Positions 30,162 to 30,680 of a DNA stretch of 64,000 nucleotides are shown piece by piece. The stretch lies in sequence record NC_018854.1. One strand, written 5' to 3'. The notes beneath the pieces are model-generated. The model ran no database searches. It was not told the origin of the DNA and saw only the letters and a program-made list of their open reading frames with translations. The stretch is from Escherichia phage ECBP1. Made by a program: the position numbers and the translations under genes. Within the stretch, counting starts at the first letter, position 1; each line of letters starts with the position of its first letter.

Positions 30162-30680
30162 GTGAGGGCTTTCTCATTTGAGGTAGTTATGTCAGAAGAA
30201 ATTAAAGTCCATTTCACCAACTACATTGGAACCAAGTGTGTAAATGGTTTTCCGATGAGCAAAGAAACATACTGCAAACTTCGTGGTTGGGATGTACCAG
30301 CAGATGAAGACCCGCTAGAAGAAGGCTACTTAGTCGAGTATCCAGACTCTAAGTCCAACCATCCCCAATTCCGTGGCTATATTAGCTGGTCACCTAAAGC
30401 TGCATTCGAAGCTGCATACCGTGACGTAGAAAAAGGTTGTACCTTTGGTCATGCAGTAGAGCTTCTCAAATCAGGCTTTAGAATGACCCGTAAAGGTTGG
30501 AACGGAAAAGGAATGTATATCACCTTAGTATCTGGTGAAAATTGGGCCATGGATAAACATGAAAATACCGTTTGTGAGAAACGGGATTGGCTGGGTATTA
30601 AAACCGTTGATAACCAGTTTATGCCATGGGTTCCATCTCAATCAGATGTATTAGCAGAAGATTGGGTGTTAGCTCAGTAA
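30162..30680 (+). CDS. protein with C-terminal DUF2829/Tad2-like domain
   Basis: 'GFRMTRKGWNGKGMYI...FMPWVPSQSDVLAEDW' matches my recollection of the DUF2829 signature; extra about 90-aa N-terminal region; start may be internal ATG at 30189. Confidence 0.45.
   Translation: MRAFSFEVVMSEEIKVHFTNYIGTKCVNGFPMSKETYCKLRGWDVPADEDPLEEGYLVEYPDSKSNHPQFRGYISWSPKAAFEAAYRDVEKGCTFGHAVELLKSGFRMTRKGWNGKGMYITLVSGENWAMDKHENTVCEKRDWLGIKTVDNQFMPWVPSQSDVLAEDWVLAQ

What the first reader, a model, noticed from the sequence alone, without database searches (positions are those of the whole stretch)
30162..30680. DUF2829/Tad2-like domain protein: candidate anti-Thoeris signal sponge
The C-terminal about 75 aa (GFRMTRKGWNGKGMYI...FMPWVPSQSDVLAEDWVLAQ) matches what I recall as the DUF2829 signature (GW.GKG ... 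PW..SQ.D.LA.DW). That family includes Tad2, which sequesters the Thoeris gcADPR signal. Here it is fused to an extra about 90-aa N-terminal region and sits at the end of the plus-strand block next to a bidirectional terminator.
Basis: partly seen in the sequence, partly recalled or inferred. Interest (0 to 1): 0.7.

Follow-up and report, generated by a model that had tools for sequence, protein, structure and literature searches.

The report
N4 gp49-type Tad2 signal sponge
This phage gene very probably encodes a small protein that soaks up a bacterial alarm molecule so the host's Thoeris defence never fires. That part is an ordinary member of a known family, but its extra front domain is a widespread phage module whose function is still unknown.

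Summary
The window is an N4-like coliphage (PD38/Bp4, Gamaleyavirus). The ORF encodes a protein whose residues 85-161 match Pfam PF11195 (Tad2-like, E 9.4e-24). The predicted fold superposes on SPO1 Tad2 (TM 0.80-0.88), and 8 of 10 SPO1 ligand-contact residues are identical, with one conservative change.

The real start is most likely ATG 30189 (163 aa), not GTG 30162. The protein is the ortholog of N4 gp49 (91% identical) and is already labelled DUF2829/Tad2-like in public records. It lies next to an Acb4-family sponge gene (the N4 gp48 ortholog), inside the "anti-signalling hotspot" of N4-like phages described in a June 2026 preprint. I found no experimental test of this subfamily.

The N-terminal ~75 residues are a separate, highly conserved domain with no Pfam model:
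- It occurs in 1,330 representatives of 50%-identity clusters.
- It is fused to Tad2, Acb4, Sequestin, Acb2/Tad1-hairpin, Lockin and RyR-Tad sponge domains, and also occurs alone.
- It is homologous to the N-domain of CB1 gp68, reported as a domain-swapped dimer with no activity alone against type I Thoeris.

Verdict: an ordinary new member of a known family. The unexplained N-domain is the only open question.

The parts
30189..30680 (+). Coding sequence of the 163-aa two-domain protein (ortholog of N4 gp49); stop codon TAA at 30678-30680
   Evidence: ORF. ATG at 30189 with GAGG 5 nt upstream. Same gene length as RefSeq Bp4 EpBp4_0032. 91% identical to N4 gp49.
30162..30188 (+). 5' extension of the mechanical ORF (GTG start); most likely not translated
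   Evidence: It overlaps the hairpin 30151-30171. Homologues start at the position equivalent to ATG 30189.
30180..30183 (+). Shine-Dalgarno-like GAGG
   Evidence: Read directly from the sequence.
30210..30428 (+). N-terminal domain (aa 8-80): conserved phage module with no Pfam model, motif YIGTK..PM....Y..LRGW.VP.DE...EGYLVEY...N....GYISWSPK..FE.AY
   Evidence: No Pfam hit even at E<=10. 1,330 cluster representatives match at E<=1e-3. AF2 pLDDT 95. Homologous to the N-domain of CB1 gp68 'RyR Tad' (hhalign 94.9%, E 4.8e-8; hmmsearch E 9e-11).
30438..30671 (+). Tad2-like (DUF2829, PF11195) domain (aa 84-161), with predicted ligand-pocket residues W104 N105 I137 T139 D141 M145 W147 S150 S152 D153
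   Evidence: Pfam E 9.4e-24. PDB sequence matches. Foldseek TM 0.80-0.88 to SPO1 Tad2. Pocket conservation.
30685..30710 (.). Bidirectional intrinsic terminator shared with the convergent virion RNA polymerase gene
   Evidence: 11-bp stem, 6 G-C pairs, T-runs on both strands.
30151..30171 (+). Terminator-like hairpin between the Acb4-like gene and this gene
   Evidence: 8-bp stem, 5 G-C pairs, followed by TCTCATTT.
29689..30069 (+). Adjacent Acb4-family (PF13876) sponge gene, ortholog of N4 gp48; forms an anti-signalling pair with the gene studied
   Evidence: Pfam PF13876 E 1.7e-25. 47% identical to N4 gp48. N4 gp48 is named Acb4 and shown to trigger Panoptes (PMC12657230). PF13876 is the Acb4 family.

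Best explanation
The gene encodes a middle-gene product of an N4-like phage that acts as a 'sponge' for a host immune second messenger.

Tad2 domain (aa 84-161). By analogy with solved Tad2 proteins, it assembles into a homotetramer. Two pockets lie between non-dimeric protomers, lined here by W104/N105, I137/T139/D141, W147 and S150/S152/D153. These pockets bind and sequester an ADP-ribose-derived signal made by Thoeris TIR proteins. The most likely ligand is 1''-3' gcADPR (3'cADPR) of type I Thoeris, so the ThsA effector is never switched on.

N-terminal domain (aa 8-80). This is a separate beta-sheet module that, in the one relative with a reported crystal structure (CB1 gp68, 'RyR Tad'), forms a domain-swapped dimer. 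Here it most likely staples pairs of protomers together or carries an additional activity not yet identified.

Context. Together with the neighbouring Acb4-family gene, which sponges cyclic oligonucleotides, it forms a two-gene anti-signalling cassette at the end of the replication/middle gene block.

What is shown and what is inferred. Shown here: family membership, fold, pocket conservation, domain architecture, genomic context and homology of the N-domain. Inferred: oligomeric state, ligand identity, anti-Thoeris activity and the role of the N-domain.
For: - Family and fold: Pfam PF11195 at E 9.4e-24. Sequence matches to four experimentally characterised Tad2 proteins in the PDB. AF2 model pLDDT 89.4. 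Foldseek TM 0.80-0.88 to ligand-bound SPO1 Tad2.
- Pocket: 8 of 10 ligand or water contacts of SPO1 Tad2 are identical and one is conservative. W104, N105, T139, W147 and D153 are invariant and D141 and S150 nearly invariant in 45 homologues.
- Short insertion: the beta2-beta3 insertion is about 19 aa, shorter than in SPO1 Tad2 (24 aa), which does not bind cyclic dinucleotides. It is much shorter than the 41-aa insertion that forms the second pocket in HgmTad2.
- Neighbour: the adjacent gene is Acb4 family.
- Published context: a 2026 preprint describes exactly this region of N4-like phages (between primase and virion RNA polymerase) as a hotspot holding Tad2, Tad3, Acb4, Sequestin, Bes1 and Bes2.
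- Recurrent pairing: the same Tad2/Acb4 pairing with the N-domain recurs in a P22-like phage and a Clostridium siphovirus.
- N-domain: homology to CB1 gp68. The preprint reports that domain as a domain-swapped dimer. Full-length Acb4-Sequestin behaves as a tetramer built from a tetramer domain plus a dimer domain, a precedent for combining a dimer module with a tetrameric sponge.
Against: - No functional data exist for this protein, for N4 gp49, or for any Tad2 carrying this N-domain. None of the 18 Tad2 proteins tested by Hadary et al. contains the N-domain motif.
- Tad2 homologues differ in ligand, and at least one (ModTad2) does not inhibit type I Thoeris. This protein is about as close to ModTad2 as to SPO1 Tad2.
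- H71 of SPO1 Tad2 is replaced by M or V in this subfamily.
- Whether an N-terminal domain on helix alpha1, which forms the tetramer interface, is compatible with tetramerisation was not modelled.
- A purely structural role for the N-domain fits poorly with its very high conservation and with genuine standalone copies.
Confidence: 0.72

Rival explanations
1. The protein is bifunctional. The N-terminal domain is itself an anti-defence module, either a sponge for another signal or a binder of a host immune protein, and the Tad2 domain is its fused partner. This would mirror Acb4-Tad2 and Acb4-Sequestin fusions, which each neutralise two systems.
For: - Fusion partners: among the 149 best cluster representatives, the N-domain is joined to Sequestin (48), Tad2 (43), Acb4 (22) and the Acb2/Tad1 hairpin (3). 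It occupies variable positions in the chain. It is also joined to Lockin homologues and to RyR Tad.
- Precedent: the same 'fused to known sponges' logic led to the discovery of Sequestin, but that screen used Pfam families, and this domain has none.
- Conservation: about 23 nearly invariant residues across proteins that share only 30-50% identity overall, including loop motifs RGW.xP.DE and N57.
- Standalone copies: 88-aa genes in phage replication modules with no known sponge gene beside them.
- The gene is 91% identical between N4 and this phage, while the neighbouring Acb4 gene is 47% identical.
Against: - The N-domain of CB1 gp68 (aa 1-86) had no activity against type I Thoeris, and no ligand was reported in it in the crystal structure. 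However, that copy lacks the RGW/P.DE loop and N57.
- A general oligomerisation handle would also be fused promiscuously.
Confidence: 0.3
2. The Tad2 domain is a sponge, but for a signal other than gcADPR. Candidates are His-ADPR (type II Thoeris), N7-cADPR (type IV Thoeris), or cyclic mono- or dinucleotides (Pycsar, CBASS).
For: - Tad2 homologues have been shown to inhibit CBASS, Pycsar and Thoeris types I, II and IV.
- The best PDB sequence match is ModTad2, which binds His-ADPR and does not block type I Thoeris.
- S152 matches ModTad2 (S) rather than SPO1 Tad2 (T).
- The beta2-beta3 insertion is hypervariable among otherwise near-identical relatives, suggesting selection on specificity.
Against: - The canonical pocket residues are those of the gcADPR-binding SPO1 protein.
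- Most Tad2 homologues tested earlier inhibited type I Thoeris.
- The insertion is too short to build the HgmTad2-type dinucleotide pocket.
Confidence: 0.25
3. It is an anti-CRISPR of the AcrIIA7 type. Some records annotate the homologues as 'anti-CRISPR protein'.
For: AcrIIA7 is a DUF2829 protein, and its chains match the query (8kbi at E 2.7e-10, 9kzr at 1.5e-9). Homologues in phages Mimir124, 24-32N and Huey carry that label.
Against: - AcrIIA7 (HgmTad2) has since been shown to be a gcADPR and cyclic-dinucleotide sponge, and binding to Cas9 was never demonstrated.
- The match to AcrIIA7 covers mainly the first 30 residues of the domain.
- From general knowledge, not tested here: E. coli hosts of this phage do not normally carry type II CRISPR-Cas9.
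Confidence: 0.03
4. It is a housekeeping protein of N4 replication or middle-gene expression, and the Tad2-like fold is used for something unrelated to immunity.
For: It lies at the end of the replication gene block (primase, gp44-like, SSB, gp46-like) and is highly conserved between genera.
Against: - The region is variable between close relatives, with genes inserted or swapped.
- The gene pair recurs in unrelated phages at other genome positions.
- In a related phage, a deletion spanning the corresponding hotspot was tolerated.
Confidence: 0.04

Closest known systems
SPO1 Tad2 (gp34.65; PDB 8SME/8SMF/8SMG) and ModTad2 (9EIB): PF11195 sponges for Thoeris signals
   Same: Same Pfam family, same fold (TM 0.80-0.88), 40-44% identity. 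The W-N loop and the W..S.(T/S)D helix that hold gcADPR are conserved, and both are phage-encoded.
   Different: Those proteins are single-domain, about 89 aa. This one carries an additional ~75-aa N-terminal domain, has a shorter beta2-beta3 insertion, and has M in place of H71. Its ligand and activity are untested.
Escherichia phage N4 gp49 (ABK54417) and Bp4 EpBp4_0032 (YP_009031998, 'DUF2829 domain-containing protein')
   Same: Orthologues: 91% identity to N4 gp49, with the same two-domain architecture and the same position between the Acb4-like gene and the virion RNA polymerase. The window DNA across this locus is 99.6% identical to phage Bp4, where this gene is annotated EpBp4_0032.
   Different: Essentially nothing. 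No function has been published for these proteins either, as far as the searched library shows.
Pectobacterium phage CB1 gp68 'RyR Tad' (Fedorova et al., bioRxiv 2026)
   Same: Homologous N-terminal domain followed by a gcADPR-binding sponge domain, encoded in the same anti-signalling hotspot of an N4-like phage.
   Different: The C-terminal sponge domain is an all-helical ryanodine-receptor Repeat12-like fold, not Tad2. The CB1 N-domain is a diverged, shorter version lacking the RGW/P.DE loop.
Fused sponges: Acb4-Tad2 (Pasteurella phage Pm86) and Acb4-Sequestin (Pseudomonas phage Ab09 gp59)
   Same: Small phage proteins that join two independently folding modules, found in the same kind of locus. 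Each domain keeps its own oligomeric state.
   Different: In those proteins both modules are proven sponges. Here the second module has no known activity.
AcrIIA7 / HgmTad2 (PDB 8KBI-8KBM)
   Same: DUF2829 domain with the conserved gcADPR pocket.
   Different: HgmTad2 has a 41-aa insertion forming a second pocket for cGG and 3'3'-cGAMP. The insertion here is about 19 aa.

Membership tests
Tad2 / DUF2829 (Pfam PF11195) | Sequence match to the family profile above the curated threshold | tested here: met
   84.2 bits against a cut-off of 25, E 9.4e-24, profile positions 2-72 of 73.
Tad2 / DUF2829 (Pfam PF11195) | [quoted passage not shown] | tested here: met
   AF2 pLDDT 89.4, with elements H86-94, E99-101, E110-114, E134-138, E144-146, H151-155, E159-161. 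Foldseek TM (normalised to target) 0.80-0.88 to 8smf, 8smg and 8wje.
Tad2 / DUF2829 (Pfam PF11195) | Conserved ligand-pocket residues (SPO1 W25, N26, I63, T65, D67, H71, W73, S76, T78, D79) | tested here: met
   W104 N105 I137 T139 D141 M145 W147 S150 S152 D153: 8 identical, 1 conservative, 1 changed. Conservation in 45 homologues.
Tad2 / DUF2829 (Pfam PF11195) | Homotetramer with pockets at protomer interfaces | not testable with these tools
   Only single-chain prediction is available. The effect of the N-domain on assembly is unknown.
Tad2 / DUF2829 (Pfam PF11195) | Binds and sequesters a TIR-derived signal and inhibits Thoeris in vivo | not testable with these tools
   Needs binding assays and phage challenge. 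No published test of this subfamily was found.
Tad2 / DUF2829 (Pfam PF11195) | Short single-domain protein (about 90 aa) | tested here: not met
   163 aa with a second domain. This is typical of the founding members rather than a strict criterion: fusions are known.
N-terminal domain shared with CB1 gp68 'RyR Tad' (unnamed; PHROG 872 / 9467 N-part) | Sequence homology to the gp68 N-domain | tested here: met
   hhalign probability 94.9%, E 4.8e-8. hmmsearch with a profile from the 149 representative N-domain segments plus the query gives E 9e-11 over model positions 3-78.
N-terminal domain shared with CB1 gp68 'RyR Tad' (unnamed; PHROG 872 / 9467 N-part) | Five-stranded beta-sheet completed by a swapped beta1 strand (dimer) | tested here: inconclusive
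   The monomer models show strands at 10-13, 17-24, 45-51 and 64-69 plus helices at 25-32 and 70-76. In the domain-only model the first ~18 residues have no assigned secondary structure. A strand swap cannot be modelled here.
AcrIIA7-type anti-CRISPR | Inhibition of type II-A CRISPR-Cas9 | not tested
   Only the shared DUF2829 domain is seen. The literature now assigns AcrIIA7 to the sponges.
Acb4 (Pfam PF13876): the upstream neighbour, for context | Profile match above threshold and orthology to N4 gp48 | tested here: met
   89.8 bits against a cut-off of 27. 47% identity to N4 gp48 over the full length.

The most novel reading that the evidence does not exclude
The ~75-aa N-terminal domain is a previously unnamed family of phage counter-defence modules with its own target, either an immune signal or a host immune protein. 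It would be as widespread as the known sponge families. It would have been missed because it has no Pfam model and because the only copy tested was a diverged one, assayed against a single system. On this reading the N4 gp49 family is a two-headed inhibitor.
Probability: 0.3. Interest if true: 0.7.

Novelty: new member of a known kind. Interest (0 to 1): 0.38.

Why it matters
As a Tad2-family sponge the gene adds little. It confirms that the model phage N4 and its therapeutic-candidate relatives (the G7C/Bp4 group) carry a paired anti-CBASS and anti-Thoeris cassette. That is relevant to host range and to defences such as Panoptes that are triggered by sponges.

The wider point is the N-terminal domain. 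It is present in more than a thousand protein clusters, is attached to at least six different signal-sponge families, and also stands alone. It has no family model, no released structure and no known function. Working out what it does would either reveal a new anti-defence activity or explain how phages build and stabilise modular sponges.

Tried and rejected
- Family libraries: Pfam at E<=10 for the N-domain and six standalone members gave nothing. NCBIfam and PADLOC gave nothing.
- Is the N-domain Lockin, Sequestin, Acb5 or TadIV-1? No. It appears as an extra domain on Lockin and Sequestin homologues. TadIV-1 is described as a two-helix protein restricted to Straboviridae (T4-type) phages, unlike this beta-sheet domain.
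- Is the N-domain one of Tad3-Tad8? The Cell 2025 paper is not held, so no direct comparison was possible. Indirectly this is unlikely. The preprint that names Tad3 in the hotspot calls this domain 'a fold with unknown function', and the EVADES supplements held as text (one file truncated) contain no N-domain motif.
- Anti-CRISPR reading: rejected (see rivals).
- Single-sequence search of the Acb4-like neighbour against the PDB found nothing, so the family assignment rests on Pfam and on orthology to N4 gp48.
- I tried to fetch phage Ab09 with a wrong accession. I used CB1 gp74 instead as the Bes1-family comparator.
- The acidic 146-aa protein at 26895-27335 shows no significant similarity to CB1 gp75, so a Bes2 assignment is not supported.

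Full report
**Identity of the window and the gene**

The 1.1-kb region around the finding is 99.6-99.7% identical to Escherichia phages PD38 and Bp4 (Gamaleyavirus, Schitoviridae, N4-like). The mechanical ORF 30162..30680 starts at a GTG that lies inside a terminator-like hairpin (30151-30171). ATG 30189 is preceded by GAGG. It gives the 163-aa protein annotated in RefSeq for Bp4 as EpBp4_0032, 'DUF2829 domain-containing protein'.

The gene is the last on the plus-strand block. A bidirectional terminator (30685-30710) separates it from the convergent 3,576-aa virion RNA polymerase gene. The protein is 91% identical to gp49 of phage N4 itself.

**The Tad2-like domain**

- Pfam PF11195 matches residues 85-161 at E 9.4e-24.
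- phmmer against PDB sequences finds ModTad2 (7e-17), SPO1 Tad2 (6e-15), HgmTad2/AcrIIA7 and SptTad2.
- An AlphaFold2 model built on 45 full-length homologues has mean pLDDT 89.4.
- Foldseek places its C-terminal half on SPO1 Tad2, apo and gcADPR-bound, with TM 0.80-0.88 normalised to the target and 40-44% identity.

The residues reported to hold 1''-3' gcADPR in SPO1 Tad2 are W25, N26, I63, T65, D67, H71, W73, S76, T78 and D79 (Yirmiya et al. preprint). They map to W104, N105, I137, T139, D141, M145, W147, S150, S152 and D153 (alignment). Within the subfamily, W104, N105, T139, W147 and D153 are invariant, and D141 and S150 nearly so.

The segment between beta2 and beta3 (aa 115-133) is about 19 residues. 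It is shorter than in SPO1 Tad2 and far shorter than the 41-residue insertion that builds the cyclic-dinucleotide pocket of HgmTad2. That segment is also the most variable part of the protein. Relatives with 90-97% identical N-domains share only 16-21% identity there.

**What cannot be settled from sequence**

Tad2 homologues bind 3'cADPR, His-ADPR, N7-cADPR, cyclic dinucleotides or cUMP/cCMP, sometimes in separate pockets. This protein is about equally distant from the gcADPR binder (SPO1) and the His-ADPR binder (ModTad2). I therefore commit to 'sponge for a TIR-derived ADPR signal, most likely 3'cADPR'. The alternative ligand is kept as a rival.

I found no experimental test of N4 gp49 or of any Tad2 carrying this N-domain. 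The tested set of Hadary et al. contains none, and literature searches returned none.

**Genomic context**

The upstream gene (29689-30069) belongs to PF13876 (E 1.7e-25). This is the Acb4 sponge family (Chang et al.). The gene is the ortholog of N4 gp48 (47% identity), which has been named Acb4 and shown to be necessary and sufficient to trigger the Panoptes system.

Further upstream lie the primase, a gp44-like AAA protein, SSB, a gp46-like protein, an acidic 146-aa protein and three tRNA genes. The gp46-like protein is 35% identical to CB1 gp74, which is annotated as similar to the gp46-like protein of phage Ab09.

A June 2026 preprint (Fedorova et al.) describes this interval, from primase to virion RNA polymerase, as an 'anti-signalling hotspot' of N4-like phages. 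It holds Tad2, Tad3, Acb4, Sequestin, Bes1 (RuvC-like) and Bes2. The finding thus sits in a locus type that has already been recognised.

Close relatives differ here by inserted or exchanged genes. The pair also occurs elsewhere:
- N-domain-Tad2 followed by Acb4 in a P22-like phage, where the first ORF is unannotated.
- Tad2 followed by N-domain-Acb4 in a Clostridium siphovirus.

**The N-terminal domain**

Residues ~8-80 have no Pfam match even at E<=10. PHROGs places the full protein in phrog_872. It links the N-part to phrog_9467, whose other half matches the Acb4-like neighbour.

An exhaustive phmmer search of 1.84 billion cluster representatives found 1,330 proteins at E<=1e-3 and 603 at E<=1e-10. 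A tblastn search found the domain in 121 phage genomes infecting Escherichia, Vibrio, Klebsiella, Pseudomonas, Rhizobium, Acinetobacter, Clostridium and others.

Among the best 149 representatives, Pfam finds Sequestin (PF21825) in 48, Tad2 in 43, Acb4 in 22 and the Acb2/Tad1 hairpin in 3.

| Architecture | Count |
|---|---|
| N-domain-Tad2 | 36 |
| N-domain-unknown partner | 32 |
| N-domain-Sequestin | 25 |
| N-domain alone | 13 |
| Acb4-N-domain-Sequestin | 11 |

The domain also occurs on two entries in the published Lockin homologue list.

Standalone copies are genuine 88-aa genes in phage replication modules with no known sponge gene beside them. About 23 positions are nearly invariant, including loop motifs.

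**Link to a characterised protein**

The N-terminal 70 residues of Pectobacterium phage CB1 gp68 are homologous to this domain. hhalign gives probability 94.9% and E 4.8e-8, and hmmsearch gives E 9e-11.

Fedorova et al. call gp68 'RyR Tad'. They report the following:
- Its C-terminal ryanodine-receptor-like domain binds gcADPR.
- In the crystal structure that domain forms a domain-swapped dimer.
- On its own it has no activity against type I Thoeris.

The CB1 copy is a diverged, shorter version that lacks the RGW/P.DE loop and the conserved Asn, so that negative result may not generalise.

The same preprint shows that a fusion of a tetrameric sponge (Acb4) and a dimeric one (Sequestin) is a tetramer. 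That is a precedent for a dimer module attached to tetrameric Tad2.

**Interpretation**

Best supported (0.72): a Tad2-type signal sponge directed at a Thoeris signal. It is paired with an Acb4 sponge and carries an N-terminal dimerising or accessory module.

The most novel reading not excluded (about 0.3): the N-domain has its own anti-defence target. It meets the same 'fused to known sponges' criterion that led to Sequestin, but it was invisible to that Pfam-based screen.

The anti-CRISPR and housekeeping readings are unlikely.

**Novelty and score**

- The Tad2 assignment is correct but ordinary. It is already reflected in RefSeq and GenBank annotation, and the locus type is published.
- The protein is a new, untested member of a known kind.
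- The unexplained N-domain gives the finding moderate residual interest.

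Noticed in passing
window 29689-30069 (+): The upstream neighbour is an Acb4-family (PF13876) protein, ortholog of N4 gp48 at 47% identity. It ends in a Cys-rich tail (CDGGGCTI) shared with N4 gp48. Together the two genes form a sponge pair, each flanked by a hairpin.
   Followed up: partly
window 30189-30680 versus N4 gp49; 29689-30069 versus N4 gp48: gp49 is 91% identical between two different genera (Gamaleyavirus and Enquatrovirus), while the adjacent Acb4 gene is only 47% identical. This points to either very strong constraint or recent horizontal exchange of gp49.
   Followed up: partly
window 30531-30587 (aa 115-133, the beta2-beta3 insertion of the Tad2 domain): This segment is hypervariable among otherwise near-identical relatives: the N-domain is 90-97% identical while the insertion is 16-21% identical. 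In several Gamaleyavirus genomes the DNA similarity stops near window 30520, just upstream of this segment. This suggests recombination or diversifying selection at the site that forms a second ligand pocket in other Tad2 proteins.
   Followed up: partly
window 26339-26893 (+): N4 gp46-like protein, 35% identical (E 2e-28) to CB1 gp74, which is annotated as similar to the gp46-like protein of phage Ab09. By position and annotation it belongs to the RuvC-like family that a 2026 preprint calls Bes1 (broad evasion of signalling). No Pfam hit.
   Followed up: partly
window 26895-27335 (+): 146-aa protein with a small N-terminal region (MQIILNQSE...) and a long acidic, low-complexity tail. It occupies the position of Bes2 in related phages, but no significant similarity to CB1 gp75 was found.
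   Followed up: partly
window 28155-28226, 28518-28596, 29299-29373 (+): ARAGORN calls three tRNA genes, with anticodons cgc (Ala), aca (Cys) and aat (Ile), between the replication genes and the sponge pair. Two of them are annotated in Bp4. The anticodons are unusual and were not examined further.
   Followed up: no
L008 (Enterobacteria phage IME10, JN600960) 1525-2025 and 2317-2697: This P22-like phage has an unannotated 166-aa N-domain-Tad2 ORF followed by a 126-aa Acb4-like ORF just after the lysis genes. This looks like the locus that gave PF13876 its 'Sf6 gene 66' name.
   Followed up: partly
L007 (Clostridium phage CP51, NC_021325) 1295-1501 and 1501-1965: A 68-aa Tad2-like gene is immediately followed by an N-domain-Acb4 fusion, located between head genes. 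The same three modules appear in a different combination in a Gram-positive siphovirus.
   Followed up: partly
protein P0269 (354 aa, metagenomic): An N-domain-Tad2 protein whose Tad2 domain is split by an in-frame HNH plus AP2 (homing-endonuclease-like) insertion at the beta2-beta3 site.
   Followed up: no
One cluster of seven may correspond to the Acb2/Tad1 hairpin hits. The rest are candidate new sponge-like modules, although some look like frameshifted Tad2.
   Followed up: no
proteins P0142 (373 aa) and P0169 (658 aa): Large proteins with an unknown N-terminal region (MNKQEVIT...DIDV..) followed by N-domain-Tad2. Their architecture is unlike the small sponges.
   Followed up: no
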